Below, piece by piece: positions 41,401-64,000 of a stretch of 64,000 bases of DNA. This DNA is from Macrostomum lignano (lineage: Eukaryota). The notes under the pieces are model-generated. The model saw only the letters and a list, made by a program, of their open reading frames with translations, ran no database searches and was not told where the DNA came from. The translations under genes and the position numbers were made by a program. Where the stretch lies: contig NIVC01002011.1 of assembly GCA_002269645.1 (NCBI GenBank), positions 62,001 to 126,000 on the forward strand, given 5' to 3'. Each line of letters opens with the position of its first letter. Position 1 is the stretch's first letter.

Positions 41401-43744
41401 ATCCTAGCAACCCAACTCCCAGTTTAGCAGTTTAGCAACCCAGTTTAGCAATAGTTTACCAGCAGTTTAGCAATGGTTCACCAGTACTGTTTCACACAAT
41501 CAGTGAGTAGATGCCACTAATCTACATGTTTCTCAATAATCGAAACTATTTGAAATTGATTTGCATCCTCTTACATATTTATTACTTTATTGCACGTCAG
41601 CTTAGCATTGCTCTCCCCGATTAGCGCTGCTCACCGGATTAGTAATACCTCCTGTAAATAAGCAGTTACATCAGAGTAGCACTGTTCTAGAAGATTAACG
41701 CAGACATAGCAAAACTACCTTTAAAATTAAATGTTAAAAATCTGCAGGAAATCTGCATAGGAGACAGTAAATATTGTCACAGGTCACAGAAATAAATTCA
41801 CTGCTTCACTTCAGGCTCGAACTGCCGACCTTCAGTCTATGTCTGTTAATGCCTGCCTACTGCGGCTATTGTGCCTATTGACAGATGGTAGAAATGTACC
41901 TTCTACTGTTCAAGAAGTTTAACTTCAGCAGTTTGAAGTTAATCCCCCAGAAATCGGCAGTTATCCCCAGAACAACCTGAAACTATCCCTTCATCTAATG
42001 CCGCAAAACAGACTGCAGTCAATCCCCCCAGTCATCTCTTAGCAGTCTGCATTTATCCACTTTGCAGTCTACAACTTTCATGAAAATTAAACACTTATAC
42101 CCCTAGAATTGCTAGAATTGTCCCCTCAGCAAACTCTGTTGATAGTTATCCCTTCAGCAGTTTGCAACTATACGCTTATAAGTCTGGAGGAACTACCCCT
42201 CCAATCGAAAAAATTCGATTCTCATTTATCCACACAGCAGTCTGCAGTTCTGCTCTCAGCCGGCTCCGCAGTATCCTCAGAAGACTACAATTTGTACGGC
42301 TCACTAATCCATTTTCGATACATATCGGCAGTCTTGCAAAGCTCAGCATTTAGCAATACGTTCGGCAGTTTTGCAGAATCGTCTGCAGTTTAGCAATTTC
42401 ATACTTTTATGGAGCTAGGCGATATACAAATTCATGGGATCAGTAATACATGTACTCAAAGCAGTTTTCTACAAATCAAATTTGATTAGCAAATCGCGCC
42501 GAATAGCAAAAATAATTCATTAAGTGTGCCTTGCTAATTAAGCAGAAATGTTGCAATTAGTACCCAGTGGAAAAGACAACGTTGATCCAACGGTGTTTCA
42601 ACGGAGGTATGTCACAAAAGCGTTGGGAACAAAAAAGTTTGTCTTTGTACCCAAAATGGCTCGTAAGCAATTAAAAAAGCTTTTATTTTGCTTACTGAGC
42701 CAATATTTCATTTTTTGAAGTGCGTTGTGAAACCGTTGTAAAACCGTTGTGATTGCTCTTCGTTGAATTGCCGTTGTTTCTCAACGGTAAACCAAATTTC
42801 CCAAAAAGACTGTGAGTAAAACTGAGGTCAGGGAATTTTGTAATAACTCTAGAACTAAGTTGGATTTGCTCTACACAGTACGTATTATGTAAAGTGTTTT
42901 CTTTTTGGCAACTACTGTGCAGTTTTTTGTTAATAATTAGTAGACAAAATTGGTTTGATAAACTTATATGTTGCAAAGCATCACGACGCACGTCTATTTT
43001 ACATAGTACCAATATTGTTTTGCAATTTCTGTTTGGAGCAGGAGAATGTGGATTTTTGTCATACTTGTTATTTTGATGGTCTGTTTAGCATATAGTTTCC
43101 TCCGATTTTCATGCTCACGTGTTTTATTTTGTGGATGGCTTGTATTGCAGATCCTTTGCAAACTTCACTTTTGAATTAGCTGGCTAGCTATCTTTTTATG
43201 ATTAACTCACATGCTATGCATGTTTCAAAATTGTTTTTTCTTTTTTTTAGTTGCATAAATGTACACAACACACATGGCTTGGCAACAGTGGAAGTGCAAT
43301 GCCTAATTGTTCTTTGCAATTTAACCCAGCAAGCATGACAGTATATAGCTTTACCTTTAACCCACTATATCTTTACTTTATTTAGGGCTTTTATGGGCTA
43401 TAGCCTAGGAACATATCAATTATTAGCTACTATGTGTGTGCAGATCAATTCCTCAAATGCCAGGTAGATGCTGTGTTTTCCTTGTTATATATTTGCTATA
43501 TTTGTATAACTATTTTGTATTGTAGGCCATATTACTATAGCTATGTCATAGCTATATATATTAGCTATAAATATTTATATGCTTTAGCTAGTGCCTGTGC
43601 AGTGCCAGGTATATATAGAAATAAAAGAATGTAATTGTTTATAATTATTCATGGTAAATATAGTATGAGTATAGTATAGTATTATTTGCCAATTACTATA
43701 AGATATTGTGATATAAATGATTTTACTTGTGAATTATTTTTCAG

Positions 43745-45373
43745 ATGTCCAAACGTAACTTTGCTAGAAAAGTGCTTCAGGGTTGTTTAGAGGAAATTGA
43801 AGTAGAGCAGCTTCAAAAAGCATCTGAACCCATTAACCAAGATCAAGCCCAAGGCAATAATCATCAACAAGATGAAGAATTCATTCAAGCTGAAGAATAC
43901 GACACTGACTTTCTTGGCAACAGTCATGGCAATCCAATGGATAATAGTGAATCAGATGAAGACCTTGTAGAAGAGGATCAAGATATACCTGAAGTTGAAG
44001 ATGCTACGCCAGAGCTAACAATTGAGCAAGAACTGCTTCTATTTTATATACTTTTTAATGTGTCACGCTCTGCTATGGCTTGGATCCTTGCCTTTTTAAA
44101 TCGCAAGGGTATTTCAGTTCCAAAGTCTGTATATGGCTTGAAAAAGCATTCTGCTAATTCTTCTTATTATTCTATTATTGCTACTGAAGGAGACTTTTTC
44201 TATGTATCAATGGCCAAAAATTTGGAATTTTGTGTTAGCAATAATTATTTTGACTTTTCAAAATGCATTACTGATTCTGAAACTGGGCACATAAAAGTAA
44301 ATTCCATTTTCAATATAGATGGAATGCCCTTGTATAATAGTTCTTCCATGTCAGCTTGGCCAATTTTAATGAAAGTATCAGGCTATTTGCGTCCATTGCC
44401 CATTGCTATTTTTGTTGGTAAAAGTAAACCATCATTGAATATTTTGTTATCACGCTTCTGTGAAGAGCTAAACATTTTTTTTAGTAATGGTATTCAAGTT
44501 CTTGGCCACCATTTTAAGTTAGTCCGTGCTCTTTTTGTTTGTGATGCCCCTGCTCATGCTCATATCTGCTCTATTATGAACCATAACTCTCGCATGGGAT
44601 GTAGTTATTGTCAAGCTGAAGGTAGACATTTTGCTAATCGTATTGTTTTTTCATCTTCTATTGGTACTTTGCGAACTGATCAGTGCTATGCTGATTCTAA
44701 AGAAAATAACCAGAAGGTAGGGCATTCAACACCTTTGCTGAGTATTAAAAATATTGGTTTTTATTCTCATTTTCCACCTGACTATCAACATGCTGTATGT
44801 TTAGGTGTTTGTAGAAAAGTTTTTAATTTTCTTTTTTCATCTAAGTTTGGTTCATCTTGTAAGATTTCAGCACTAAAGTTAAAAGAGCTGTCTGATTTTA
44901 TTGATAGCTATGCCAAGTTCACTCCTGCTGAGTTTCAGCGGAGGCCTCGCCGTATTGATACAAATTTAGCTCACTTTAAAGCAACTGAGTTTCGACTCTT
45001 TTTGCTATATTTGGGGCCTTTTTTCTTCAGAAAGTTTTTACCACAAAAATACTATGACCACTTTCTTCACTTGCACTTTTCTATCTATGTTTTTTGCTCT
45101 GATGTCCACCAGACTCTCTTACCAAATGCTCATCGTTGTATTGAGATTTTTGTTAAGGAAATGGAGTCATTGTATGGTGAAGCATCAATTTCTTATAACC
45201 CTCACACTTTGCTCCATCTTTATGAATTTGTTTGTCTATATGGAAAACTTGACAATTTTTCTGCATTTGACTTCGAAAACTATTTGGGGCATGTTAAAAG
45301 ACGAATTTCAGTTACCCGCTTTGCTTCTAAGCATATTTTGCACCAGTTTTTTAATGTGAATTTCTTTATTTGA
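43745..45373 (+). CDS. EnSpm-type DDE transposase (542 aa)
   Basis: NIDGMPLY..S..WPIL, VCDAPA, HNSRMGCSYC, PPDYQHAVCLGV, PAEFQRRPR, FKATEFRLFLLY, SYNPHTLLHL, SAFDFENYLG. No internal stops. ATG directly follows a TTTTTCAG acceptor. Confidence 0.9.
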   Translation: MSKRNFARKVLQGCLEEIEVEQLQKASEPINQDQAQGNNHQQDEEFIQAEEYDTDFLGNSHGNPMDNSESDEDLVEEDQDIPEVEDATPELTIEQELLLFYILFNVSRSAMAWILAFLNRKGISVPKSVYGLKKHSANSSYYSIIATEGDFFYVSMAKNLEFCVSNNYFDFSKCITDSETGHIKVNSIFNIDGMPLYNSSSMSAWPILMKVSGYLRPLPIAIFVGKSKPSLNILLSRFCEELNIFFSNGIQVLGHHFKLVRALFVCDAPAHAHICSIMNHNSRMGCSYCQAEGRHFANRIVFSSSIGTLRTDQCYADSKENNQKVGHSTPLLSIKNIGFYSHFPPDYQHAVCLGVCRKVFNFLFSSKFGSSCKISALKLKELSDFIDSYAKFTPAEFQRRPRRIDTNLAHFKATEFRLFLLYLGPFFFRKFLPQKYYDHFLHLHFSIYVFCSDVHQTLLPNAHRCIEIFVKEMESLYGEASISYNPHTLLHLYEFVCLYGKLDNFSAFDFENYLGHVKRRISVTRFASKHILHQFFNVNFFI

Positions 45374-49904: not shown

Positions 49905-52051
49905 GCTTCCGAGACCGTTCGTCTGAAACTGTCTCAGGACACATGTCGACAACCTAGTATCTGGCGCAGACTCCGAAGAGGAAGCTATGGTATTGTATCA
50001 CATGACGCGGAGCACGTTCCTGAAAGCATCGATGAATATACGCGGCTGGCTCGCAAACTGCTCATCTCTGAACACCACTGCTCATGAAGATGGTTGTGGC
50101 GTGTCACATTCAACCAAATCACCAGTCAAGGTCCTTGGCATGCAATGGATTCCGGATAGCGACACATTCAATTTGTCGATTCGCGATCATCCGGCAATCG
50201 GCTTGTCCGGCGAACGTCTGACCAAGCGTTCGACATTGTCAGCGTTCTCCAAGACGTTCGACCCTCTTGGCCTTTCATTGGCCTTCTTGAAAAAGCCAAA
50301 CTGCTTTTTCAGCAGAGCTGCAAACTAAAGGTGCCGTGGGACGCTATGCTTCCGAAGCCCCTTCACTCGCAGTGGGTTGAATGCTTAGCTGAGTTACGAT
50401 GTTGGACGATGCCACTCGACAGTAGAGTCTTCAGACAGACGCCCATCGCATGCGAAATTCATGGGTTCTGTGAAGCATCTCAATCGGCCTACGCAGCGTG
50501 CGTCTATTTACGGTCTATATTCGATTCAGGTGACGTCCAAGTTGCGCTACTGATGGGCAAAACACGCGTCGCGCCCATAGCTCCGACGACTATTCCACGG
50601 CTAGAGTTGATGGCTGCGAACGAGCTTGCTCAAGCCCTCGACAAAGTCCGCGCTGAACATCCGCATGACGTCATCACCTGCTGGAGCGACAGCATGGACG
50701 CTCTGTGGTGGCTCAAGTCCACACAAATTGTAGAAGCCATTCATTCAAAACATTCCAGCAGCTGTGGCACCGGAGAAGTGACTGTTCTGCCCTGGGAGGG
50801 ACAACCCCGCCGACATTGCTACCCGACCAGTCGTGCCCGGCGCATTCGATTAATCGTCCCTTTAGTTTTGGGGTCCTAAGTGGCTGTCTCTGGATTCCTC
50901 GCTCTGGCTGGAACAAACTGTGATAGGCGACCAAAGCTCATATCATCGAGAAGATGAACACAGCTGCGTAGTCACACAGACGTCGACGTCAGAGGTAAAA
51001 TCGGCACGCATCCATTCCATCATCGAGGTGCAGGCTATAATTCCTTGACTAGATTGCTGCGGGTCTCAGCGTGGGTTCTTCGTTTCATCAGCATTTTAAA
51101 ACGGACGCGGCAGGCTACGACTGTCGAGCTGACGTCGGCAGAGCTGTTAAAAGCGGAGGAGTTGTGGATTAAATCGCTGCAGTCGCGTGACTTCGTTGCC
51201 GACATTCGCAGTCTTCGCGACAGCACAGCACTAGCACACCAAAAGTGCATCTCGAACTCGTCACTGACTTGACAACGCAGTCATTCCTTCTGAGCCTGAG
51301 ACGCTTCTGTGCCCGCCGAGGTGTACCATCGATTATCTCTGACAACTTCAAAACCTTCCATGCGGCGGCCAGGCTACTGGATGCAGAAAAAGCTCTATTA
51401 CGGACTCAAGCAGGCCAGGATTTTCTGAGCAGCCGCCGAGTCACCTGGACATTCATTCCCGAGCGAGCTCCATGGATGGGAGGCTTCTACGAGAGACTGG
51501 TCGGCGTAGTGAAATCAGTGCTCAAGAAGACAATCGGAAGGGCTTTCCTGCCCGTCGAGGAGCTGTCGACAGTAATCTGTGAGGCGGAAGCGGTTGTAAA
51601 CTCAAGACCGCTTGGCTTCGTGTCTTCCGGCGAGCAATCAGAAGTCATCACACCTGGTCATTTCCTCGTTCTGCGCCGCCTGACAAAAGAACCAGAGGAC
51701 GAAGCGGAAGCTTCAATGGTCCTGCCGCTTCCCAAAAGGCTCCGAAAGTCCAGACATTTGCTGAACAAGTTCTGGAAGGAGTGGCAAGCACAGTACATTC
51801 TGGCCCTCCATGAGCGATCATCCAAAGACGGTCAAACATCGAATCGGGAAATACGAGTTGGTGACGTAGTGTTAGTGATGGATACCGGATTGCCAAGACT
51901 TCAGTGCAAGCTTGCGGTTGTCGAAGCTGTGCACCAGGGTTACGATGGAGTCGCCCGTTCATGCCTACTGCGGGTGGCCAGTTCTCAAAGTGGTCGAGCT
52001 GCTACGCATCTTCGACGGCCAGTGAAGTTGCTGGTACCTCTGGAAGTCTGA
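49905..52051 (+). pseudogene. pol: BEL/Pao pol fragment (RT end, RNase H/A17, integrase, DUF5641), frameshifted and internally deleted
   Basis: VDNLVSGADSEEEA, KVLGMQW, TKRSTLS..FDPLG, IHGFCEASQSAYAACVYLR, TIPRLELMAA, HLELVTDLTTQSFL..RRFCARRG, SDNFKTF, APWMGGFYERLVG, RPVKLLVPLEV*. Confidence 0.9.
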
Positions 52052-52414
52052 CGTGTCGTTAGTGGTTTTTAACTCGGCTGCTGGCTGCGTCTAGTCGTTT
52101 TTCCTATGTTCTTTTGGTCATTTTGCTGGTGGCGTTCGGTCGGTGGTCGTTTGATGTCGGTGGCTGTGTGGCGGTCGGTGGTCGGTCAGTCGGTTGGTTG
52201 GTGGTTCTCAGTCGTTTTTCGGTGGTCGGGATTTGCGTTTTTTCTGGTAATTTTGCAGTTTATACACAGTTGGTTGATTTTCGTGCTTTATCGGTTTCTG
52301 CTTTTTTTCCGCAGTCCGATGTTTTAGCGGCGGCAATATTTGTTTTTTCTACCTTGTGTTACTTTTCCTTTTGTGAAATGACCTTGACCTCAATCGATCA
52401 GGTCATTGGGGGAG

Positions 52415-52881
52415 TGTGGAGTAAAAGTTCATGTTTATTCAGCCCAAATGGTTTTCTTTACTTTAAGAGAAAGCCGACTCACCTTTCACCCCGCTCTGCC
52501 CTGTCGTGCAATGTACATCCGCTCGTACACTGGGCGCCCCCACCCCACGCGTCATTTTCTTTTCGCTTTATCTAAATAAATAAGTCAAAACAGCCAGCGA
52601 ACCAGAGGGCCTTTTTTCGCTTTCTCTCAACAAACTCTAAAGAGAAAATCAATTGAGTCGTGTCAATTCAGTTACACGGCATAAGCTGCGCTCGTGTGTA
52701 GTACTGGATACGGTAAATTGTATACCTTATCTGGAGCTGACTGGAATACAGTCAAGACTAGCAGCGGTGGGAGTGAAAATGTATGAAACTGAGGGAGTTG
52801 TACACATGCTGGCTAAAGTATTACGCCAACAGGCTGCCATGACTGAGCGTTAACGTTGATCGAGCGCCGACTAAGTCTTCA
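52415..52881 (+). mobile_element. BEL/Pao 3' LTR (right boundary uncertain)
   Basis: PPT GGGGGAG at 52408-52414 directly before TGTGGAG. The end was chosen at ...GTCTTCA and is not confirmed. Confidence 0.45.
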
Positions 52882-53499
52882 GGGCTAAGGGGATACGGTT
52901 CAGGAAGAAAGTAACCTCGAATTTCTTCCTATGACTGGCATCGACAATTACGAGCACCTCGTAGAAGCTTGTCGCCAGAATGCAAAGAGCAATGTAGTAA
53001 GCAGTGCAATCCTTTTAGTCTACTATAAGCTCATCTTTAGTAAAGCGACTGCTGATGCGATACAAATACTTTAGTGCATTAATATTCAGGAAACTGTAGC
53101 GCATAAAAAATAACTTTTGGTGAATTTCAAATTAAACATATGTAATAGGGTCGATCTTTTATTCTTACTAATAGTAGTTTTAAGCGGGTTTAATGAGCTA
53201 TTTTTACTCAGCCAATCAGTAAATTTCCTTGTTTAAATCCCTTAATTATTTTGTTTTAACTAACTTCAGCCAATGGAGTTTAATAATTTGTTATAATTTC
53301 GTAAGCTATTTTTGTTATAATTAATTTCATCCAATCAAATTAAGTTTTATCCTCTATATAAACGGAACGATTGACCAAGAATAAAATTAACTTGCTCTTC
53401 CGCGAATTTTCGCGAGCTCGCTCTCAACCGGAGAAGAAGCGTTTTTGCCATCCAAACCAAAACGTGAGTTGAAACTTGCGAGTCTTAGTTCTTTGTAGG

Positions 53500-53712
53500 A
53501 ATAGGGAGAAACCAGAGGTCGTGGAGACCCAGAACTAGGGATCTGAATAGGGAGAAATCAGAGGTCGTGGAGACCCAGAACTAGGGATCTGAATAGGGAG
53601 AAACCAGAGGTCGTGGAGACCCAGAACTAGGATCTAAATAGGGAGAAATCAGAGGTCGTGGAGACCCAGAACTAGGATCTAAATAGGGAGAAATCAGAGG
53701 TCGTGGAGACCC
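53500..53712 (+). repeat. Five tandem 45-46-bp repeats in the Gypsy 5' leader
   Basis: AATAGGGAGAAA(C/T)CAGAGGTCGTGGAGACCCAGAACTAGG(G)ATCT at 53500, 53546, 53592, 53637 and 53682. Stops in all three frames. Confidence 0.95.
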
Positions 53713-53723
53713 AAGACAGAGGC

Positions 53724-54591
53724 ATGTGAGAATTCAGAAGTACACGCCAAGCCAAGACATTAGGATCTGGTTGACAGCTTTTGATCAGAGGTGTGAATCA
53801 GAAGGAATCGAGGAGAATCATAGGAAAACTGAGCTATTAGCTAATCTAGACTTAGCAACAGCGTTCGCCGCTGTACAACGACTTAATCTGCCAGAAGATC
53901 TAGGGTATGAAGAATTCAAGGAGCACTTGATCGAGAGATTTGGTAGGATAGGAAACGCGTCAGAGTTTAGGGAAGAGTTTAGAGGCAGAATGCAAGGAAG
54001 GAATGAGACGAAGGACGCTTATGCTGATCGCTGATTGAGCTATCAGATAGAGCCTTCCCGAACATGAATGCAGAGCAGCGAGAGGAAGAGATAGTTGAGC
54101 AATTTATCAAAGGAGTTAGGATTCCGCCAGACACTAGGGAGAAGTTAATCTTCGCCCAACCTGCGAATCTGCAAGAAGCTAGGCGAATGCTAAGGCGAAT
54201 TGAGGCCGCATGGCAACTATCGCACAAAGGAGGTGTTAGGATGATGAAAGAGGGAGAAGGAGGGCAAGAGAAGAAGCTCCAAGACTTAGTTCAGCAGCAG
54301 AAGAATGAGTTAGAGCAACAGAAAAAGCTGATTCAGGAGCTGATGGCGCACAAGCCACCACCTATGGCTAGACCGCAGCCATGCCCAGCTCAGATGCCGC
54401 GACAGAGTTATCAGCAGCAACCAGCATTTCAGCCGAGAGTTCCGGCATATTATCAGCCTAGACCTAGGAGAGAGTTTCCGATTCGCTCTTATTCGCCGCA
54501 GCCAGGAAGGTGTGCAATTTGCCAGCAACCCGGTTCAATAAGGCCTGGTATAGGTCACCAGTGCCGCGTGAATCGCAAACAGGGAAACTAG
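53724..54591 (+). pseudogene. gag: Gypsy gag with two apparent single-base deletions
   Basis: RIQKY...IRIWLTAFDQRC...FRGRMQGRNETKDAYADR-(shift near 54030)-LIELSDRAFPNMNAEQREEEIVEQFIKGV...CAICQQPG...QGN*. The ATG at 53724 is one base out of frame. Confidence 0.85.
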
Positions 54592-57500
54592 AGTACAGAG
54601 GGTGGCATGAGAGGCCACGACCCTCTAGGAGAAATGAGTACAAAATGAAAGCCTCTAATTGTAAATATAGTGTAGATAGTGAAGGTTGGCGAACTGTCCC
54701 AATGCGAAAAAGACACATAGGTGGTGTGCATGTAAATAATGCGTTTGCACCAGCACCAATTTCCACTTATTCTGCGTCAGCACCTCATGCGTATGCACCA
54801 GCCGCATCATCATGTGTCAATCCTGCTTATGCTACTGAAAACTTGGCACCAGTAGTAGAAGAAGAGTCTGAATCCGATTTTTGCCAGCCACAGCCTAAGA
54901 AAATAGTTAAGCAAAAGGTTTTTCCGAAACCAAAAGTTGAATTAGTAAACCAGACAGGCTATGAAGCAATAGTAGTAGGCAGTATCGATAATCAAGAAGT
55001 AGACTTTCTAATAGACACAGGCGCTCAAAATAATTTTCTAAGTAGATCAGTTTGGTCAAAAGTATTCGAGCCGAGTCAGATTAGAGAAACAAGTAGGAGA
55101 GTTTCCACATTTGATGGAACTACAGTGAAATTAGAAGGAGAAGCGAGTACTTTAGTGCAGTTCGGAGATTTAGAATTAGAAATAGAATTCCTACTCTGCA
55201 GCCACGATTGTGACAACATACTAGGCATGGAATTCTTTAAAAATCGCTGTGAAAGCATTCAATTAGCAAAAGGCATGTTAATTTTAAAAGAGGGGACTTG
55301 TATTCCCATGCAGTATACTCATTTGCCAGTAAAAGTTTGCCGAGTATATACTCAGGAGAGGGCAGTAGTTCCGCCTAATAGCGCACTGCGAATCCCAGTG
55401 AGATTAGCCAAAAATTCAGAAGCCAATTATGGCACGCCAATGACTATTGAGACTATTGGAAGTAGTATTAGGACTAAGACAGAGACAGTAGAAATGAATC
55501 CGACTTTAGTTACTATGCGCGATGGCGTAGCCATAGTAGAAGTAATGAATCAAAGCACGGTAGAAGTGAAATTGCCGAAATCAACCTTAGTAGGTTTAGC
55601 TAAGCCAATCAGGGCTAGAGAGCTCACTTACATGAATAATGAAGTAGATCAAACCGTGCCGTCAGATCAGCCAATCACCGGACGTGTCAATCAAACGCAA
55701 TCTACAAGTGAAACTTGGATTAGCGAAATAGATATTAGTGAAGATTTGACAGCAGAACAGAGAGATAGGGTGATTCAGCTCGTAAAAGAGCATAGAGAGG
55801 CCTTTTCTCAACATGATCTAGATATGGGCTTAACATCACTAGTCACGCATGAGATCTCACTAAGGGATGAGACACCTGTTAGGATTCCGACTAGAAGGAT
55901 TCCCCCTCATCTGCAGAAACAGGTAGATGCTCAGCTAGATGACATGTTAGCTAAGAACTTAATTAGGCCATGCTATTCGACTTATTCAACACCTCTAGTG
56001 ATCGTACCAAAGAAAGATGGTACTATTCGAATAGTCAGTGATTTTAGAGTGCTGAATTCACGAGTGAACTACTTTCCGTATCCGCTGCCAAATATTCAGG
56101 AGACATTTTCAAACTTAACAGGCAGTCAGTATTTTAGTAGCCTTGACCTGAATTCTGGTTATTGGCAAGTTCCGATAAAAGAGGAACACAAGTTTATGAC
56201 TGCATTTTCAACATTAACAAGAGGTCAGTTTGAGTATCAAGTTATGGCTCAGGGCTTATCTAATGCCCCAGGTACTTTTCAAAGGCTTATGAATCTAGTG
56301 TTAGCAGGCATTCAGCATAAATATGCCATGTCATACATAGATGATATAGTGACCTATTCTAAGCAGTTTGAAGATCATTTAGAACACCTTAGAGAGGTAT
56401 TTGAAAGACTAATTAGTGCAGGACTAAAACTAAGAGCTAAAAAGTGCAACCTATTTCATAGCGAACTAAAATATTTAGGCCATGTAATTGGAAGAGAAGG
56501 AATTAGGACTGATGAAGCTAAAATAGAAGCCATTAGGAGCTGGCCAAAGCCAAAGGATGTAAAAGAGCTAAGAAGTTTCTTAGGATTATGCAATTATTAT
56601 AGTCGCTTTGTTAAGAATTATGCTGAGGCTGCACATCCGTTATTTCAACTAACTAGGAAAGGAGTGCAGAACTTTCAGGCAAAGTGGACTAGAGCTCATG
56701 ATGAAGCATTTGAAGAGCTTAAGAAAAGAATGATGTCAACAGAAGTGTTAGCCTATCCAGAGTTTGTAGACGATGAGAATGTTAGAATGGTCTTAGACAC
56801 TGATGCTAGTGATGGACGCATAGGGGCCTGCCTAGGCCAAATCCAGTCAGATGGCATCGAGAGGCCTATAGCATATTTCAGTCGGGCTATGAAAGAAACA
56901 GAGAAGCGCTATCCAATAACTAGGAAAGAGTTATTAGCATTAGTAGATGCGATGAAGCATTTTAGATTTTATCTGATAGGAAAGCGATTTTTAGCGCGCA
57001 CAGATCATAAGGCGATTTTATGGTTGTTAAGGCAAACAGAGGCCCAAGGGATTCTAGGACGTTGGGTGGAACGCTTAAATGAATTTCAATTCGATATTGA
57101 GCATAGAAGCGGTGCAAAACACTCCAATGCGGACAGTTTGTCCAGAAGACCGGCGGAAGTAGCTGAGGCAACCAAAATTGAGCAAGGCGTGAAAGCCTGT
57201 GAAAGTGAAAAGGGCGTGAAGCCGATAGACAGCGTGAATGCTGCAGTAGGCGAGACAGTAGAAGAAGGAGAAAGAGAGATGCAGACTTCGCATCCCGAGG
57301 ACTCAGAGTCTAGGATCAAGTCATTAGTCATTTCAGGAGTAGAAGGTGCGAAGGTAGAAGATGTGTCAGCACCGAGTTCAAGCTTAACGCAACAGAACAG
57401 AGACACTGAACCTGATCACAGAGAGAGTGAGATACCTAAAGTTACAAAATTACTAACTGACTACTTGCAAGTACCATTGAAGAAGGAGCAAATTGTTAAA

Positions 57501-59327
57501 GCTCAGAGGGAAGACACAGCAATCTGCACACTAATAGAGTGGAAGCAAGAAAATCTGTCAGTCCCGCCAATTCAGAAAAATGAGTCAGTCGAACTGAAGC
57601 AGTTGAGACGAAAATATGAGAAAATGAAGCTAGAAAGGAATCTGTTGACTATAGAAGAAGAAAGAATCTGGAAAATAGTTTTGCCTAAATCTTTAGATAA
57701 GCTAGTGTTTAGCGATCTGCATGATAGCCCGCTAGCAGGACATTTAGGTAGAGACAAAACAGTTCAGCGAGTTAGAGAGAGATTTTGGAGACCAGGCTTA
57801 GTAGCCGCAGTAGAAAAGCATGTGGCAGAATGCATCCCATGCTTAGAGAGCAAAAGAGGCCATAAAGTGCAAGCTCCGATTCAGTCATTTCCAATTAGTG
57901 AGCCATTTCACCGATTACACATAGATGTGATAGGGCCAATTTCAAAAATTAGCAAAAGAGGCCATCAGTATGTGTTGACAATAGTAGACAGCAATACTCG
58001 CTATCCGTTTGCATTTCCAATGCGCAATCAAAAAGCTGACACAATTATTAAGCTATTGCAAGAAAGAGTATTTAGTGAATATGGCCAATGCCAATGGATT
58101 CACACAGATAATGGCAAGGCATTCACTAGCAAACAATTTAGTGCATTCTGTGAGTTGTACAATGTGAAGCATACTTTCACAACTCCATATCACGCACAGA
58201 GCAATGGTTTAGTTGAGAGATTTAACAAGCAGGTCAAATCAATAGTCACATGCCTGATTGAGAAAGATCATAGCAATTGGGATCTATTAATTCCAGCAGC
58301 TTTAGTCGCAGTTAGAACTAGCGTTAATCAGACTACAGGCTATTCGCCGCATTTCTTATTGTTTGGCAGAGAGGCAGTTTTGCCCATAGACCGCGAACTT
58401 AGAGAGCCAAACCAATACGCTAATTATCCGACCTATGTAGCCGAACATGCCGAAAGATTAGAGAGTGCTAGAAAAATAGTTAAGGAAAAGTTTGAGAAAG
58501 TGCATGACAAAAGGCAGACAGACGCCGAGAATCAGAAAAAGCCAAAGGCTATCGAAGTAGGAAGTTTAGTACTAATTAATAATCCACAACTTAACATTGA
58601 CGAATCTAATAAGTTTCATAGGAAAAAGCGAGCCGCCTTTCGAGTGCTTAAGCAAATCTCAGAAGTAGTTTTTAAGATTCAGAAAGAAGAAGAAGGCGAG
58701 TTAGTAGGCAACAAGTTATTAGTACATAGGGATAACATGGCCCCAGTGCCAAACTCTGTGAAAGAGCCAATAGATAAGGGAAGCCAGGAGAGTGCTGAGA
58801 CAGTAGAAATTATTAATAAGGAGAGCCAGACGAAAGCTAAGCATTTAGATAAAAGAAATCAGCAGGAGGTAGGACAATCAAGCAAGGGAAGCCACGCCAG
58901 AAAGAATAGACTAGAGGAACCAGTTATCGAATTAGAAGAAGAAAGCTCTGATGAGGAACAGCCGAAGTGGTTTTGCAAGATTCGTGAAAATGAACAATCG
59001 GTACATGAGAATGAACCAGAGTTGGAAGTGGAGTCAAGAGCTGAGATAGAAAATAATATGCAACATGAGAGCCTAGTGGAAGAGGAGATGGAGAGGTCAG
59101 AGCGAGAGGGAGGAGAAGTAACGATCGATAACAGACGCGAAACAGAACAGGGGGAAGGAAAAGGCGCGCATGCGGGCCACACTGAGAATGGGGGTACGCC
59201 AGACAAAGAGGGTAATAAAACTAAACCATATAACACACGCAGCCGTACTAGGCCACCAGTCAAATGCCAGTGTTATCTAAAAAAGCTTGCTACTGTATGG
59301 AGACTATTAGAAAAATTAAACTTTTAG
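54510..59327 (+). CDS. pol: Gypsy Pol polyprotein (PR-RT-RH-IN), open over 1605 codons
   Basis: FLIDTGA (protease), FSSLDLNSGYWQ and YIDD (RT), LDTDAS (RNase H), HDSPLAGHLG..C..C, HIDVIGP, HTDNG, VERFN (integrase). Long acidic C-terminal tail. Confidence 0.97.
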   Translation: MCNLPATRFNKAWYRSPVPRESQTGKLEYRGWHERPRPSRRNEYKMKASNCKYSVDSEGWRTVPMRKRHIGGVHVNNAFAPAPISTYSASAPHAYAPAASSCVNPAYATENLAPVVEEESESDFCQPQPKKIVKQKVFPKPKVELVNQTGYEAIVVGSIDNQEVDFLIDTGAQNNFLSRSVWSKVFEPSQIRETSRRVSTFDGTTVKLEGEASTLVQFGDLELEIEFLLCSHDCDNILGMEFFKNRCESIQLAKGMLILKEGTCIPMQYTHLPVKVCRVYTQERAVVPPNSALRIPVRLAKNSEANYGTPMTIETIGSSIRTKTETVEMNPTLVTMRDGVAIVEVMNQSTVEVKLPKSTLVGLAKPIRARELTYMNNEVDQTVPSDQPITGRVNQTQSTSETWISEIDISEDLTAEQRDRVIQLVKEHREAFSQHDLDMGLTSLVTHEISLRDETPVRIPTRRIPPHLQKQVDAQLDDMLAKNLIRPCYSTYSTPLVIVPKKDGTIRIVSDFRVLNSRVNYFPYPLPNIQETFSNLTGSQYFSSLDLNSGYWQVPIKEEHKFMTAFSTLTRGQFEYQVMAQGLSNAPGTFQRLMNLVLAGIQHKYAMSYIDDIVTYSKQFEDHLEHLREVFERLISAGLKLRAKKCNLFHSELKYLGHVIGREGIRTDEAKIEAIRSWPKPKDVKELRSFLGLCNYYSRFVKNYAEAAHPLFQLTRKGVQNFQAKWTRAHDEAFEELKKRMMSTEVLAYPEFVDDENVRMVLDTDASDGRIGACLGQIQSDGIERPIAYFSRAMKETEKRYPITRKELLALVDAMKHFRFYLIGKRFLARTDHKAILWLLRQTEAQGILGRWVERLNEFQFDIEHRSGAKHSNADSLSRRPAEVAEATKIEQGVKACESEKGVKPIDSVNAAVGETVEEGEREMQTSHPEDSESRIKSLVISGVEGAKVEDVSAPSSSLTQQNRDTEPDHRESEIPKVTKLLTDYLQVPLKKEQIVKAQREDTAICTLIEWKQENLSVPPIQKNESVELKQLRRKYEKMKLERNLLTIEEERIWKIVLPKSLDKLVFSDLHDSPLAGHLGRDKTVQRVRERFWRPGLVAAVEKHVAECIPCLESKRGHKVQAPIQSFPISEPFHRLHIDVIGPISKISKRGHQYVLTIVDSNTRYPFAFPMRNQKADTIIKLLQERVFSEYGQCQWIHTDNGKAFTSKQFSAFCELYNVKHTFTTPYHAQSNGLVERFNKQVKSIVTCLIEKDHSNWDLLIPAALVAVRTSVNQTTGYSPHFLLFGREAVLPIDRELREPNQYANYPTYVAEHAERLESARKIVKEKFEKVHDKRQTDAENQKKPKAIEVGSLVLINNPQLNIDESNKFHRKKRAAFRVLKQISEVVFKIQKEEEGELVGNKLLVHRDNMAPVPNSVKEPIDKGSQESAETVEIINKESQTKAKHLDKRNQQEVGQSSKGSHARKNRLEEPVIELEEESSDEEQPKWFCKIRENEQSVHENEPELEVESRAEIENNMQHESLVEEEMERSEREGGEVTIDNRRETEQGEGKGAHAGHTENGGTPDKEGNKTKPYNTRSRTRPPVKCQCYLKKLATVWRLLEKLNF
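54582..54626 (+). promoter_or_regulatory. -1 programmed ribosomal frameshift signal (gag-pol)
   Basis: G GGA AAC (54582-54588) in the gag frame directly before TAG; pol is in the -1 frame. After an 8-nt spacer, stem AGAGGGT/ACCCTCT plus GGC/GCC (54597-54626). Confidence 0.85.
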
Positions 59328-59330
59328 CCA

Positions 59331-59490
59331 GCCAATAGGAATTCAGTTGCGGTTTAAATCAAGTGTTTATTGCGCAAGAGCCAATAAGACAATTTACAAA
59401 GATTAAAACAAGTTAGTTTGTTTAAATTAACTCAGCGGGGGGGAAGTCAATTTATATAAAAGGAGACACTTAATCAGGAAGGAGTCAGGA
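59331..59490 (+). promoter_or_regulatory. Putative internal Pol II promoter for ORF3
   Basis: CCAAT at 59332 and 59381, G-tract GCGGGGGGGAAG at 59435-59446, TATATAAAAG at 59453-59462, TCAG about 30 nt downstream; ATG at 59531. Confidence 0.65.
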
Positions 59491-59530
59491 TGGACTCTAA
59501 ATCTAACAGTCAAAATTAAACTAGCTAGCT

Positions 59531-60550
59531 ATGGACGAAATAGATCTGTTCGCAGACTTTGAAGATTTACTAGGAGATTTTACTATCCCAGTAGGGCAAG
59601 AGGCGGTAGTCGCCCAGCAGCCGCAGCAGCAAGAGGCGGTAGTCGCCCAGCAGCCGCAGCAGCAAGAGGCGGTAGTCGCCCAGCAGCCGCAGCAGCAAGA
59701 GGCGGTGGTCGCCCAGCAGCCGCAGCAGCAAGAGGCGGTAGTCGCCCAGCAGCCGCAGCAGCAGCAGGCAGTAGTCACCCAACAGTCAGAAACGATAGTT
59801 ATTGAGGATCAAGAAGCAGAGGCAGCCATCGACCAAGGAAGAAGCACCCGACTAAAGTCTGTGGTAATACGGCCGGCAGCACAGAAGGTGCCTGTGCCGC
59901 ATAATCCGCAGGCTCGAGCGTCATTGCTACGTGATCAAGCCAACAGACCAGTTGAAATAAGCGATAGCATTCGCAAGCGACAGCCGCCAGGAGCGAACGC
60001 GACTCAGTTTATTACCATCAAACAGCCTAGACTCATTCTGCCACGACAGCAGTCGAGACCGCAGCCAACAGTCATGTCATCGCAAAGTACGCCTCAGGCC
60101 CCGGCCATTGGAAGGCAGGCAGCCTCAGCAGTGACACTAAGAAGCCACCGATCGCAGAACCCGATGGCCTTGGGGGCTAATTTCGCGGCCGTGCTGCAGG
60201 GAGTTCCGACTCATCTTCAAGAACCATACAAACAGGCCATCATGAAGATCAAGTCTTACCTGCTCAGCGTGGCTTTGCTAAGAATAGATGGGAGAGGCTT
60301 CTTGCCTCAAACCAAAGAGCCAGAAACGGCAATCGAGGAACTTCAGGCCAACTTTTCGCATGAGCAGTGTATAGCGGCCTGGCGAAAGGCTGTTACGTAC
60401 GCTCTACATGATCTCACCCAATCGGCTTGGTTTTACCAGCAGGCACAGCTGCGGTTCGAGGTCTGCTGGATGGCCGACAAGTTGGGATGGCCAGTCAAGA
60501 ACAGCTTGCCATCAGAATTCGGTATGAATATAGGTAATAGGCGTAATTAA
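59531..60550 (+). CDS. ORF3, 339-aa protein of unknown function (acidic N-terminus, 11-aa Q-rich repeats, helical C-terminal domain)
   Basis: Intact ATG-to-TAA frame between pol and the 3' LTR. 33-bp repeat x5 plus one degenerate copy (59597-59785, QEAVVAQQPQQ). No signal peptide or TM segment evident. Confidence 0.8.
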   Translation: MDEIDLFADFEDLLGDFTIPVGQEAVVAQQPQQQEAVVAQQPQQQEAVVAQQPQQQEAVVAQQPQQQEAVVAQQPQQQQAVVTQQSETIVIEDQEAEAAIDQGRSTRLKSVVIRPAAQKVPVPHNPQARASLLRDQANRPVEISDSIRKRQPPGANATQFITIKQPRLILPRQQSRPQPTVMSSQSTPQAPAIGRQAASAVTLRSHRSQNPMALGANFAAVLQGVPTHLQEPYKQAIMKIKSYLLSVALLRIDGRGFLPQTKEPETAIEELQANFSHEQCIAAWRKAVTYALHDLTQSAWFYQQAQLRFEVCWMADKLGWPVKNSLPSEFGMNIGNRRN

Positions 60551-60589
60551 CATTTTGCTGACACTCACGAATTGCCTGATCTGTACTTT

Positions 60590-60830
60590 GCCTAACCTGT
60601 ACTTATTCATTTGCTTAACCTGTACTTATTCATATTGCTTAAATCTGTGCCACGATGCTATTTTACTTATTCATTTGCTTAGCCTGTACTTATTCATTTG
60701 CTTAACCTGTACTTATTCATATTGCTTAAATCTGTGCCACGATGCTATTTTACTTATTCATTTGCTTAGCCTGTGCTTATTCATTTGCTTAACCTGTACT
60801 TATCCATATTGTTTAATCGGTGCTATGATG
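60590..60830 (+). repeat. 87-bp tandem repeat (with 23-24-bp subrepeats) in the Gypsy 3' UTR
   Basis: CACGATGCTA at 60651 and 60738; internal CTGTACTTATTCATTTGCTTAAC subunits. Confidence 0.85.
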
Positions 60831-61095
60831 CGATTCTCTTTTACTATTTAGCTCACTAATACTATTCACTTGCATAATTTGTGAGTATCTGTATTGTTTT
60901 CGTATGCTACTTATAGTATTGTTCATGTAATTTGTATTTTTTCACACATATAATTAATTCAAAAATCCAATTAAGGGAAGCCAGTTGTAATAGGGTCGAT
61001 CTTTTATTCTTACTAATAGTAGTTTTAAGCGGGTTTAATGAGCTATTTTTACTCAGCCAATCAGTAAATTTCCTTGTTTAAATCCCTTAATTATT

Positions 61096-61730
61096 TCCTA
61101 TATACTAAAAATGGTCTGTCTGTGTCTATCTATCTATCTATCTATCTATGTGATCGATTAGAGAAAAAATGGCCGGACCGATTTTGTTCGAACTTGCACT
61201 GTTCGATCAGAAATTTTCCCGTGACTGTACATGCATCGTGGCTAAGAAATTGCTCGATGCTAAAGGCATTAAATATTCGAAAAACATGCTTTTTTGCAAA
61301 GGTCAAGCAAACTTTTCGACTTGAAATGCATTGTAAGAATGCTAGAGAAAAAACTGACTGGTTGAATTCTGATTCTGAAATAGATTGCATCATAACTGAA
61401 TTGTAACTCCGACTTGAATTGAAAATGCAGTGTGGAAGCGGACACCAGACTTGATTTAAATTGCGTAACCATATTGTTAACTGATACTGACTGACTGAGA
61501 AACTGATTATGTCATAACTGCTTCGTGTAATTTACTCTATGCTTGGATTTTAAACTGTTGAATTATATATATATAAGTGCAAAATTTGATGTTATCAAAA
61601 CGATAAGAGCTAGCCTAGAGGTGAACAAACTGAACTGCTAAATGCAGCGACGATGGTTCATATTTTCATAGAGTGGAATTTTTTTAATTAAAGCTTTTCA
61701 ACGTCAGGAAAACTAAAAGACTTTAAAAAA
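61096..61730 (+). mobile_element. Helitron-like element 5' portion inserted in the Gypsy 3' LTR
   Basis: TCCTATATACTAAAAATGGTCTGTC...(TATC)n; homologous to the reverse complement of 37250-37922; tRNA-like GAGCTAGCCTAGAG at 61607. Confidence 0.75.
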
Positions 61731-64000
61731 AAGCGTCATATAAAAATCATAGATGCGTCATTTAAAAAATCATAGAAGCGTCATGTAAACAATCATAGAA
61801 GCGTCATGTAAAAAATCGTAGAAGCGTCATATAAAAATCGTAGAAGCGTCATGTAAACAATCATAGAAGCGTCATGTAAAAAATCATAGAAGCGTCATGT
61901 AAACAATCATAAAAGCGTCATGTAAACAATCATAGAAGCGTCATGTAAAAAATCGTAGAAGCGTCATGTAAACAATCATAGAAGCGTCATGTAAAAAATC
62001 GTAGAAGCGTCATGTAAACAATCATAGAAGCGTCATGTAAACAATCATAGAAGCGTCATGTAAAAAATCGTAGAAGCGTCATATAAAAATCGTAGAAGCG
62101 TCATTTAAAAAATCATAGAAGCGTCATGTAAAAAATCATAGAAGCGTCATGTAAACAATCATAGAAGCGTCATGTAAACAATCATAGAAGCGTCATGTAA
62201 AAAATCGTAGAAGCGTCATGTAAACAATCATAGAAGCGTCATGTAAAAAATCGTAGAAGCGTCATGTAAACAATCATAGAAGCGTCATGTAAACAATCAT
62301 AGAAGCGTCATGTAAAAAATCGTAGAAGCGTCATATAAAAATCATAGAAGCGTCATGTAAAAAATCGTAGAAGCGTCATGTAAAAAATCGTAGAAGCGTC
62401 ATATAAAAATCGTAGAAGCGTCATGTAAACAATGATAGAAGCGTCATGTAAAAAATCATAGAAGCGTCATTGAAAAATCATAGAAGCGTCTTTTAAAAAA
62501 TCATAGAAGCGTCATATAAAATCGTAGAAGCGTCATGTAAACAATCATAGAAGCGTCATGTAAACAATCATAGAAGCGTCATGTAAAAAATCATAAAAGC
62601 GTCATGTAAAAATCATAGTAGCGTCATGTAAACAATCATAGAAGCGTCATGTAAAAAATCGTAGAAGCGTCATGTAAAAAATCGTAGAAGCGTCATATAA
62701 AAATCATAGAAGCGTCATATAAAAATCATAGAAGCGTCATGTAAACAATCATAGAAGCGTCATGTAAAAAATCGTAGAAGCGTCATGTAAACAATCATAG
62801 AAGCGTCATGTAAACAATCATAGAAGTGTCATGTGAACAATCATAGAAGCGCCATGTAAAAAATCATAGAAGCGTCATGTAAACAATCATAGAAGCGTCA
62901 TGTAAACAATCATAGAAGTGTCATGTGAACAATCATAGAAGCGTCATGTAAACAATCATAGAAGCGTCATGTAAAAAATCTTAGAAGCGTCATGTAAACA
63001 ATCATAGAAGCGTCATGTAAACAATCATAGAATCGTCATGTAAAAAATCGTAGAAGCGCCATGTAAACAATCATAGAAGCGTCATGTAAACAATCATAGA
63101 AGCGTCATGTAAACAATCATAGAAGCGTCATGTAAACAATCATAGAAGCGTCATGTAAACAATCATAGAAGCGTCATGTAAACAATCATAGAAGCGTCAT
63201 GTAAACAATCATAGAAGCGTCGTGTAAACAATGATAGAAGCGTCATGTAAAAAATCATAGAAGCGTCATTGAAAAATCATAGAAGCGTCTTTTAAAAAAT
63301 CATAGAAGCGTCATATAAAATCGTAGAAGCGTCATGTAAACAATCATAGAAGCGTCATGTAAACAATCATAGAAGCGTCATGTAAAAAATCATAAAAGCG
63401 TCATGTAAAAATCATAGTAGCGTCATGTAAAAATCATAGAAGCGTCATGTAAACAATCATAGAAGCGTCATGTAAACAATCATAGAAGCGTCATGTAAAC
63501 AATCATAGAAGCGTCATGTAGAGAATCATAGAAGCGTCATGTAAACAATCATAGAAGCGTCATGTAAAAAATCGTAGAAGCGTCATATAAAAATCGTAGA
63601 AGCGTCATTTAAAAAATCATAGAAGCGTCATGTAAAAAATCATAGAAGCGTCCTGTAAACAATCATAGAAGCGTCATGTAAACAATCATAGAAGCGTCAT
63701 GTAAAAAATCGTAGAAGCGTCATGTAAACAATCATAGAAGCGTCATGTAAAAAATCGTAGAAGCGTCATGTAAACAATCATAGAAGCGTCATGTAAACAA
63801 TCATAGAAGCGTCATGTAAAAAATCGTAGAAGCGTCATATAAAAATCATAGAAGCGTCATGTAAAAAATCGTAGAAGCGTCATGTAAAAAATCGTAGAAG
63901 CGTCATATAAAAATCGTAGAAGCGTCATGTAAACAATGATAGAAGCGTCATGTAAAAAATCATAGAAGCGTCATTGAAAAATCATAGAAGCGTCTTTTAA
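61731..64000 (+). repeat. 23-bp minisatellite (GAAGCGTCATGTAAA(C/A)AATC(A/G)TA)n, about 98 units, running off the window
   Basis: Direct reading. Confidence 0.98.

What the first reader, a model, noticed from the sequence alone, without database searches (positions are those of the whole stretch)
59331..60550. Gypsy element with a self-promoted, non-Env accessory ORF3 that looks like a transactivator
Seen: an intact 339-aa ORF between pol and the PPT, preceded by an ordered CCAAT-CCAAT-G-box-TATA cassette in the 200-bp gap after the pol stop. The protein has an acidic/hydrophobic N-terminus (MDEIDLFADFEDLLGDF), five exact 11-aa Q-rich repeats, a P/Q/S-rich linker and a ~110-aa complex helical C-terminal domain. 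No signal peptide or TM segment is evident, so it does not look like Env. Established: foamy retroviruses express their Tas transactivator from an internal promoter between env and the 3' LTR, and acidic and Q-rich segments are classic activation domains. Inference: this young element (111 bp of LTR identical, pol intact) may encode a regulator or host-defence antagonist from its own subgenomic transcript.
Basis: partly seen in the sequence, partly recalled or inferred. Interest (0 to 1): 0.75.

Follow-up and report, generated by a model that had tools for sequence, protein, structure and literature searches.

The report
Flatworm retrotransposon with second-promoter accessory gene
A Gypsy retrotransposon, likely from the flatworm Macrostomum lignano, carries after pol an extra gene with no envelope features and no known family, behind a promoter-like stretch that resembles the element's own LTR, so it likely makes a separately expressed accessory protein, possibly an activator of its own transcription as in complex retroviruses.

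Summary
The 339-codon ORF3, its five 11-residue repeats and a CCAAT-CCAAT-TATA cassette are real and beyond chance. The 'G-box' is only a G-run, and an upstream 9-codon ORF was missed. The element is a Ty3/Gypsy (PR-RT-RH-IN), likely of Macrostomum lignano. This copy is defective: gag is broken and the 3' LTR is interrupted.

New here: the internal cassette is the window's best non-self match to the element's own LTR promoter (0 of 2000 shuffles reach the score), so it is likely a diverged LTR duplicate. ORF3's C-terminal helical domain has one credible relative among 1.84 billion representatives, a M. lignano gene model of a distant sister Gypsy family. It is 50% identical there, like Gag (53%), and lies before gag. 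ORF3 is not Env, FAST-like or a Tas homologue.

No DNA-binding fold was found; the best fold match is weak (Gle1/MIF4G-like). ORF3's body is thinner in DNA contigs than gag-pol, so many copies may lack it or carry a diverged form. No start site or activity is shown. Accessory gene: about 0.75. Transactivator specifically: about 0.3.

The parts
53141..53460 (+). 5' LTR, start and promoter part (begins TG; CCAAT at 53212, 53270, 53331; TATA 53355; AATAAA 53380). Its 3' end was not determined and no primer-binding site was identified
   Evidence: a contig of the flanking repeat stops matching at 53140 and runs on unlike (table 8)
53493..53721 (+). five 45/46-bp tandem repeats in the leader, variable among copies
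53687..54591 (+). gag, broken in this copy: no in-frame start, frameshift near 54030; other copies do not share these breaks
54582..54588 (+). slippery heptamer before the gag stop, likely -1 frameshift into pol (pattern recalled)
54468..59327 (+). pol, open for 1619 codons stop to stop: protease, RT, RNase H, integrase
59321..59485 (+). internal promoter-like cassette (CCAAT 59332, CCAAT 59381, G-run 59437, TATA 59453), colinear with and similar to the LTR promoter; likely a diverged LTR duplicate
59490..59519 (+). 9-codon upstream ORF in front of ORF3
59531..60550 (+). ORF3, 339 aa: acidic/hydrophobic motif (1-22), five 11-aa repeats (23-77), basic low-complexity linker (89-212), five-helix domain (about 213-330)
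60161..60370 (+). part of the ORF3 C-terminal domain that matches M. lignano gene model P0003 (34 of 68 identical)
60587..60847 (+). 87-bp tandem repeats in the untranslated stretch after ORF3
60973..60980 (+). short purine run, candidate PPT
60986..61096 (+). first 111 bp of the 3' LTR, identical to the 5' LTR, then interrupted by unrelated sequence

Best explanation
ORF3 is an open, non-envelope 339-codon frame after pol of a Ty3/Gypsy element; it is likely a selected accessory gene, likely transcribed from a second promoter that likely arose by duplication of the element's own LTR promoter, and its product is predicted to be a nuclear adaptor that would raise the element's transcription. 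Mechanism, step by step. (1) Shown: an LTR-like CCAAT-CCAAT-TATA cassette sits 70-200 bp before the ATG. (2) Inferred: it starts a capped RNA near 59483-59485 that runs to the 3' LTR poly(A) signal, so ORF3 is made without splicing or frameshifting and independently of the genomic RNA; the 9-codon uORF would damp it. (3) Inferred: the basic linker (RKRQ motif at 148) takes the protein to the nucleus. The conserved five-helix domain docks on a host factor or on the promoter complex rather than reading DNA by a known fold, and the N-terminal acidic motif (a PhixxPhiPhi pattern at res. 10) recruits coactivators. (4) Inferred: because both promoters share one architecture, the same protein could act on both, giving a foamy-virus-like feed-forward switch. 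Odds by step: selected gene 0.75, own promoter 0.65, LTR-derived promoter 0.65, role in transcriptional activation 0.3.
For: Frame length is beyond chance (0 of 3000 shuffles), and its composition differs from pol (GC3 0.57 vs 0.36). The C-terminal domain matches M. lignano model P0003 as one 57.5-bit stretch, E 1.6e-10 for 1.84 billion proteins. Identity is 34 of 68, against 55 of 104 for Gag and 64 of 180 for the protease region of the same model, while the linker upstream barely aligns. A codon-versus-residue likelihood favours low omega (lnL -145.1 at 0.05 vs -149.1 at 1). Two length variants in sibling contigs keep the frame: a 33-nt insertion at 59798 (X4) and a net 12-nt longer contig over 59835-60106 (X11). 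Internal cassette vs LTR: score 70, shuffles 34.8 +/- 5.9, 0 of 2000 reach it. It is the best non-self tile of the window; 174 other AT-rich tiles reach at most 55. CCAAT boxes, a GTTTAAATC word and the TATA context are colinear. AlphaFold2 gives the same five-helix domain twice (pLDDT 70.8 and 73.3). Contigs of runs X11 and X17 (RNA by guess only) cover parts of ORF3. Precedents: Tor env from an internal promoter after pol (PMC4402516, passages); nuclear accessory proteins gene23 of Grande (PMC7264820, parts 1-2) and sORF1 of 412 (bioRxiv 2025.03.14.642691, passages).
Against: No start site, subgenomic RNA, protein or activity is shown; contigs cannot show these, and ORF3 lies within the genomic RNA anyway. 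Conservation rests on one gene model, without its DNA, covering only about 70 of 125 domain residues; the omega test had no neutral control and uses a locally aligned stretch. In that model the relative lies before gag, so its position after pol is not shown to be conserved. In DNA run X4 the summed contig depth over the ORF3 body is 90-112, against 215-342 for single gag/pol contigs (median bin 597). Depth is not a copy number, but many copies may lack ORF3 or carry it below 85% identity. One X4 contig skips 60499-60957, removing the ORF3 end, and contigs of three runs skip 59374-59409, removing the second CCAAT. No DNA-binding fold was recognised; the best match is a HEAT-like stack. The stringent 9aaTAD pattern (recalled) has no match. 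The Q-rich repeats are a recent DNA expansion. AT-rich sequence aligns easily: the 435-nt stretch after ORF3 scored 72 against a longer (590-nt) LTR-leader piece, so shared motifs rather than descent could explain part of the promoter similarity.
Confidence: 0.3

Rival explanations
1. ORF3 is a selected accessory gene from the internal promoter, but it works against host defence: an adaptor whose helical domain binds a silencing factor (for example of the Piwi/piRNA pathway) and whose acidic motif recruits a degradation or autophagy machine.
For: All evidence for a real, separately promoted gene applies. The N-terminal motif also fits a LIR-type pattern (res. 9-13; pattern recalled). The low depth of the ORF3 body among copies would fit fast divergence under conflict. 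M. lignano silences transposons through Macpiwi1 (PMC4604429, search listing only).
Against: No similarity to a known suppressor in Pfam, PHROGs, NCBIfam or PDB sequences. Short motifs of this kind are common. Positive selection could not be tested.
Confidence: 0.2
2. ORF3 acts on the element's RNA (Rev/Rex-like): an MIF4G/Gle1-like helical domain engages a DEAD-box helicase to export or translate the unspliced genomic RNA, with the basic linker binding RNA.
For: The second model's best match among 48,161 chains is Gle1 CTD (Z 9.4, rmsd 3.4, 119 of 125 aligned, next row 7.2); two other Gle1 chains (Z 6.6, 5.9) and Paip1, Pdcd4-MA3 and eIF4G HEAT domains are also listed. The linker has 18 K/R. 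NES-like patterns are present (pattern recalled).
Against: Z 9.4 is below the tool's own guide (about 13) for helical domains; identity is 9%.
Confidence: 0.15
3. The cassette plus ORF3 is a passenger: the LTR and first ORF of a related element, picked up by template switching or from a tandem array, carried by one subfamily and decaying.
For: The cassette looks like a diverged LTR, and the only relative of ORF3 lies before gag in its gene model. Tandem elements exist in this clade (P0006 strings two sets of Pol domains). ORF3 is thinner than gag-pol in DNA contigs and truncated in one. GC3 differs from pol.
Against: The frame is open over 339 codons although its promoter has drifted far from the present LTR. 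Both sibling length variants seen inside the ORF are multiples of three. No second PBS, gag remnant or terminus lies between pol and the 3' LTR. This origin is also compatible with present function.
Confidence: 0.2
4. ORF3 is a divergent Env or small fusogen that lets the element move between cells.
For: Its position after pol, and Tor elements express env from an internal promoter at this place (PMC4402516). Schistosome Boudicca and Saci-3 have an env-like third ORF (PMC2582038, passage).
Against: No signal or transmembrane segment (highest hydropathy 1.02), no R-x-K/R-R site and only two cysteines. It is far longer than the 60-130 aa used to define sORF1/sORF2.
Confidence: 0.03

Closest known systems
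Foamy-virus Tas/Bel1 with its internal promoter (PMC12282171, passages)
   Same: An accessory ORF near the 3' end behind a second promoter; about 300 aa; a possible two-promoter feedback design.
   Different: No sequence family match. Tas has its DNA-binding domain at 80-210 and its activation domain C-terminal (250-290); here the acidic motif is N-terminal. The host element is a Ty3/Gypsy without env. Transactivation is untested.
Tor3b/Tor4b elements of Oikopleura, env from an internal promoter (PMC4402516, passages)
   Same: An animal LTR element whose third ORF, sense and after pol, has its own promoter; in Tor4b the start lies in the intergenic space after pol.
   Different: Tor's ORF is a transmembrane, furin-cleaved glycoprotein; ORF3 has none of these marks. 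Here the promoter resembles the element's own LTR.
Grande gene23 and other plant aORF-3R genes such as Retand TRP28 (PMC7264820 parts 1-2; PMC11963269 passages)
   Same: A conserved non-Env ORF between pol and the 3' LTR, with its own promoter, tandem repeats nearby and a proposed regulatory role; gene23 is nuclear.
   Different: Those are antisense and in plants; ORF3 is sense, in an animal element, and has no Pfam match.
sORF1/sORF2 of the Drosophila MDG1/412 group (bioRxiv 10.1101/2025.03.14.642691, passages)
   Same: Non-Env accessory ORFs of an animal Gypsy; sORF1 is nuclear and comes from a short transcript; sORF2 occurs before gag or after pol in different elements, as ORF3 and its relative may.
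   Different: They are 60-130 aa and use the LTR promoter; sORF2 is a membrane fusogen. Sequence similarity to them was not tested directly.
M. lignano Ty3/Mdg4 families, Gmr1/Osvaldo cluster (PMC12801592, parts 1-2 of 6, term search and Table S1)
   Same: Same likely host; nearest Pol relatives are M. lignano models (65-69% and about 52%), then about 33% in other animals, many of them integrase-first elements.
   Different: That paper's main text never uses the word ORF. This element has RT before IN, so it is not Gmr1 in the strict sense; it has no heat-shock element. Placement in the cluster was not tested with named references.

Membership tests
Ty3/Gypsy (Metaviridae) LTR retrotransposon | pol order PR-RT-RH-IN with a Ty3-type RT | tested here: met
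   Pfam order; best solved relatives are Ty3 RT, E 2e-80
Ty3/Gypsy (Metaviridae) LTR retrotransposon | direct terminal repeats beginning TG | tested here: met
   111 bp identical at 53141 and 60986; the 3' copy is interrupted
Ty3/Gypsy (Metaviridae) LTR retrotransposon | gag before pol | tested here: met
   52-53% identical to Gag in sister models that carry Retrotrans_gag/CCHC hits; broken in this copy
Ty3/Gypsy (Metaviridae) LTR retrotransposon | PBS, PPT and target-site duplication | tested here: inconclusive
   8-purine run before the 3' LTR; no PBS recognised by eye; the 3' terminus is not in view
Gmr1 clade (strict sense) | integrase before RT | tested here: not met
   RT precedes IN; in an RT tree of 114 sequences the element sits in a 44-member group without IN-first members, apart from most of the 47 IN-first sequences; feature as in PMC2774666
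Gmr1/Osvaldo cluster of M. lignano | RT groups with GyDB Osvaldo/Gmr1 references | not tested
   no named reference sequences were available; only unnamed neighbours
Env (errantivirus, Tor, retroviral) | signal peptide and C-terminal transmembrane anchor | tested here: not met
   highest 19-residue hydropathy 1.02; acidic N-terminus
Env (errantivirus, Tor, retroviral) | furin site and cysteine-rich ectodomain | tested here: not met
   no R-x-K/R-R; 2 Cys
sORF2/FAST-like fusogen | short protein (60-130 aa) with a central hydrophobic helix | tested here: not met
   339 aa, no hydrophobic helix
Foamy-virus Tas/Bel1 | sequence homology to Tas | tested here: not met
   no Pfam family above cutoff (that Pfam holds a Tas/Bel model is recalled); the 1.84-billion search gave 2 hits, neither viral by record
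Foamy-virus Tas/Bel1 | central DNA-binding domain, C-terminal activation domain | tested here: not met
   acidic motif is N-terminal and the folded domain C-terminal (Tas layout)
Foamy-virus Tas/Bel1 | expressed from an internal promoter | tested here: inconclusive
   promoter-like cassette beyond chance; no start site obtainable from contigs
Foamy-virus Tas/Bel1 | binds and activates both the LTR and the internal promoter | not testable with these tools
   needs reporter and ChIP assays
Plant aORF-3R (Grande gene23, Retand TRP28) | antisense to gag-pol | tested here: not met
   ORF3 is sense
MIF4G/Gle1-CTD HEAT-like domain | MIF4G-type helical repeat fold | tested here: inconclusive
   Z 9.4, rmsd 3.4, 119 aligned for model 2; not in the 50 rows for model 1; no Foldseek or sequence support

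The most novel reading that the evidence does not exclude
A flatworm Ty3/Gypsy lineage built a foamy-virus-style two-promoter switch on its own: it duplicated its LTR promoter, placed a new protein family behind it, and uses that protein as a transactivator of both promoters, making it a 'complex' retrotransposon with a self-encoded transcriptional regulator.
Probability: 0.2. Interest if true: 0.8.

Novelty: new variant of a known kind. Interest (0 to 1): 0.5.

Why it matters
Self-encoded regulators are the mark of complex retroviruses. In LTR retrotransposons, extra non-Env ORFs are known, but in the papers read here their function is only proposed (PMC7264820, PMC11963269). This case adds an unclassified protein domain and a simple route to a second transcription unit, duplication of the element's own LTR promoter. 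It is directly testable: M. lignano has transgenesis, LTR reporter assays and RAMPAGE data (PMC12801592 part 2; PMC5730564 passages). If ORF3 activates both promoters it would be a convergent Tas-like circuit outside the Retroviridae; if it blocks silencing or exports RNA it would still be a new accessory function in an animal whose stem cells can pass insertions to the germline.

Tried and rejected
No whole genome is held for this window, so copy counts and true dN/dS could not be done.

Family scans of ORF3: Pfam, PHROGs and NCBIfam gave only sub-cutoff hits, mostly on the repeats. A PDB sequence search with the 2-row alignment gave 0 hits at E <= 10.

Word-index protein searches: 0 of 141 candidates for residues 200-339 (lengths 186-594). 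With the 3-row profile, 1 of 2372 longer candidates, P0002 itself. Proteins shorter than 186 aa were not searched in that database.

P0002 (E 3e-16) was dropped: its score is the sum of seven repeats, the best 17 bits. It was a row of alignment A1 before this was known.

A segment found both before gag and after IN in models P0006/P0009 looked by eye like ORF3 but failed shuffle tests (317 of 2000 and 447 of 2000 shuffles scored as high).

ESM Atlas: unnamed, mostly fungal clusters at 0.93 or less for the domain and 0.84 or less for the whole protein; leads only, not followed.

Foldseek against PDB and BFVD: nothing at E <= 0.001. No HTH, zinc-finger, bZIP or bHLH fold stood out in the VIA lists, which does not exclude one.

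Contig scans: no ORF3 relative in metagenome (0 of 73 pattern matches) or viral contigs (0 of 4), and no integrase relative in metagenome contigs (0 of 199).

Sequencing runs: no RNA holder listed on record. 4 of 24 runs were laid, all contigs. X19 does not cover ORF3, which shows nothing. X11/X4 depth ratios over ORF3 (0.04, 0.06, 0.13, 0.33, against 0.02-0.15 over gag-pol) were not used, as depth cannot rank genes. Tables were cut (671 letter differences, 65 indels, 169 loose ends, 856 pieces not shown), so no variant-based dN/dS was possible.

No tRNA gene in the window and no PBS found. No canonical HSE in either promoter. No complex prediction was run.

Literature: nine searches listed no description of this ORF. 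Three short words of the element had 0 hits in the five supplements of PMC12801592, but long cells are cut and family sequences may not be held. The authors' earlier classification paper and Repbase/GyDB entries were not seen.

Full report
1. Observation. ORF3 is open from 59531 to 60550 (339 aa). Leaving out the repeats, 0 of 3000 dinucleotide shuffles give a frame as long, and the other five frames hold 9-14 stops. Five exact 11-residue repeats come from a 33-bp tandem array. The protein has an acidic/hydrophobic N-terminus (7 D/E and 6 F/L in 22 residues), a basic linker (18 K/R in residues 89-212) and a C-terminal domain; it has no hydrophobic segment, no furin site and two cysteines. The gap after the pol stop holds CCAAT (59332), CCAAT (59381), a G7 run (59437; there is no CACGTG G-box) and TATA (59453). 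Two RCCAAT plus TATA in this order arose in 0 of 20000 shuffles of the gap and in 2 of 1276 tiles of the window, this gap and the LTR. A 9-codon uORF starts at 59490.

2. The element. pol (54468-59327) is open with PR-RT-RH-IN, and its RT is closest to Ty3 among solved structures. A slippery heptamer precedes the gag stop. The nearest integrase-region relatives are Macrostomum lignano gene models at 69, 52, 49 and 49% identity, followed by other animals and unnamed records at 27-38%. The host is therefore likely M. lignano; the 20 runs that hold the stretch all carry one coded species label. In an RT tree of 114 sequences the element groups with 11 M. lignano sequences (support 0.999) inside a group without integrase-first members, so it is not Gmr1 in the strict sense. 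Membership of the Gmr1/Osvaldo cluster of PMC12801592 was not tested. This copy is defective: gag has no in-frame start and a frameshift near 54030, and contigs of other copies share neither break. The LTR identity stops at 111 bp because unrelated sequence interrupts the 3' LTR, and the copy differs from the main gag contig at 8 of 486 letters.

3. The internal cassette resembles the LTR promoter. Local alignment of 59300-59530 with 53141-53460 scores 70, against 34.8 +/- 5.9 for shuffles (0 of 2000). The LTR is the best non-self tile in the window, and 174 other AT-rich tiles reach at most 55. A second alignment runs colinearly through CCAAT, a shared GTTTAAATC word, a second CCAAT and the TATA box with its downstream letters. 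Against this, an AT-rich control (the 435-nt stretch after ORF3 versus 590 nt of LTR and leader) scored 72 in a gappy alignment of longer sequences, so part of the signal may be composition and shared factor sites. I put descent from an LTR duplicate at about 0.65 (inference).

4. Is ORF3 a selected gene? A full HMMER search of 1.84 billion representatives with the last 139 residues gave 2 hits. P0002 is a repeat-inflated artefact (best stretch 17 bits) and was dropped. P0003 is UniRef A0A1I8G3L1 of M. lignano, a chimeric gene model that strings together a tyrosine-recombinase-like part, the ORF3 relative, then Gag and protease-region sequence of a sister Gypsy, then a LINE. The match is one 57.5-bit stretch, 34 of 68 identical, against 55 of 104 for Gag and 64 of 180 for the protease region; the linker before it barely aligns. 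P0003's Gag and protease region align well with those of P0009, whose integrase region is only 49% identical to ours. If the exon belongs to that element, the domain is old within this flatworm clade. A codon-to-residue likelihood prefers low omega (lnL -145.1 vs -149.1 for neutrality; Gag and PR show the same trend more strongly), but it had no neutral control and only one side has DNA. In laid contigs, two length variants inside ORF3 keep the frame (33 nt in X4; net 12 nt in X11), while one X4 contig deletes the ORF3 end and contigs of three runs delete the second CCAAT. Summed depth in DNA run X4 is 90-112 over the ORF3 body, against 215-342 for single gag/pol contigs. Depth is not a copy number, but the pattern suggests that only part of the family carries an ORF3 at least 85% like this one; loss and fast divergence cannot be told apart. 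Contigs of X11 and X17 (RNA by guess) cover parts of ORF3, which cannot separate a subgenomic from the genomic RNA. Overall: selected accessory gene, about 0.75.

5. What the protein is. AlphaFold2 gave a five-helix domain twice (pLDDT 70.8 and 73.3, pTM 0.65 and 0.71). Foldseek found nothing significant. For the second it gave Gle1 CTD at Z 9.4 (rmsd 3.4, 119 of 125 aligned, 9% identity), with other MIF4G/MA3-type domains at Z 5.5-6.8. That is below the tool's guide for helical domains and is a lead only. No family library names the protein. The N-terminal motif fits a PhixxPhiPhi activation-type pattern and equally a LIR pattern, and it does not fit the stringent 9aaTAD pattern; an NLS-like RKRQ lies at 148 (all patterns recalled).

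6. Mechanism. I commit to: a second, LTR-derived promoter makes a short RNA for a soluble adaptor that works in the nucleus as a tethered coactivator on the element's two similar promoters (0.3). Shown: the anatomy, the promoter similarity, the conserved domain and the lack of Env marks. Inferred: transcription from the cassette, nuclear location, partners and activation. Rivals: defence antagonist (0.2), passenger LTR-plus-first-ORF from a related element (0.2), Rev-like RNA adaptor (0.15), Env (0.03); the remainder is other functions. The relative's position before gag suggests an origin, relocation of an 'LTR plus first ORF' unit to behind pol, which is compatible with either function or decay.

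7. Comparison. It works like, at most, foamy-virus Tas with its internal promoter, but it is not a Tas member: no homology, reversed domain order, and a Gypsy host. Tor elements express a third ORF from an internal promoter after pol, but that ORF is a true Env. Plant Grande and Retand carry non-Env ORFs with their own promoter, but antisense. The 412 sORF1 is a nuclear accessory protein from the LTR promoter. An earlier scan note (e1-7557816, another genome, unchecked) reports a non-Env accessory gene next to or within Gypsy LTRs; sequence look-ups found no shared words with ours. It suggests the kind recurs and is not support.

8. Verdict. New variant of a known kind: a sense, non-Env accessory ORF of an unclassified family in an animal Gypsy, behind a probable duplicate of its own LTR promoter. 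Nine paper searches listed no description of it; repeat databases, the earlier M. lignano classification paper and possibly cut supplements were not seen. Interest 0.5. The bold reading, a self-encoded transactivator with a two-promoter switch, has probability about 0.2 and would deserve 0.8.

Noticed in passing
window 61097-64000: Unrelated sequence interrupts the 3' LTR; it starts with an AT-rich word and a GTCT/ATCT microsatellite (Helitron/Helentron-like look, recalled and untested) and runs into a 23-bp satellite to the window's end.
   Followed up: no
window 49927-52900: Decayed LTR element of BEL/Pao type (DUF5641 hit; type assignment recalled) just upstream of the Gypsy 5' LTR.
   Followed up: no
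window 53464-53499: A donor-like GTGAGT and an acceptor-like pyrimidine-AG about 35 nt apart in the leader; no splice joint was listed.
   Followed up: partly
window 53493-53721: 45/46-bp leader repeats have about ten times the depth of gag in X4 and X11 and vary in number among copies.
   Followed up: partly
window 53172-53443: Run X11 barely covers the LTR promoter part (0.37) where DNA run X4 has 833, although it covers the rest of the element; odd, since this part should end a full-length RNA.
   Followed up: no
proteins P0006 (res. 827, 2231) and P0009 (res. 132, 1616): M. lignano gene models of a sister Gypsy family carry the same coding-like segment both before gag and after integrase, unrelated to ORF3 by shuffle test; possibly a different LTR-borne accessory ORF.
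   Followed up: partly
protein P0002: Unnamed 442-aa ORF made of seven 56-residue repeats on a 26-kb ENA contig; gives repeat-inflated false hits.
   Followed up: partly
window 31705-32205 (-): ORF that looks like an OB-fold/RPA-type fragment by eye (recalled, untested).
   Followed up: no
window 12275-13862 and 43733-45373: Transposase-like ORFs (piggyBac-like and a second DNA-transposon type by eye, untested), among LINE and Gypsy remnants and several tandem arrays at 18-20, 29-31 and 35-41 kb.
   Followed up: no
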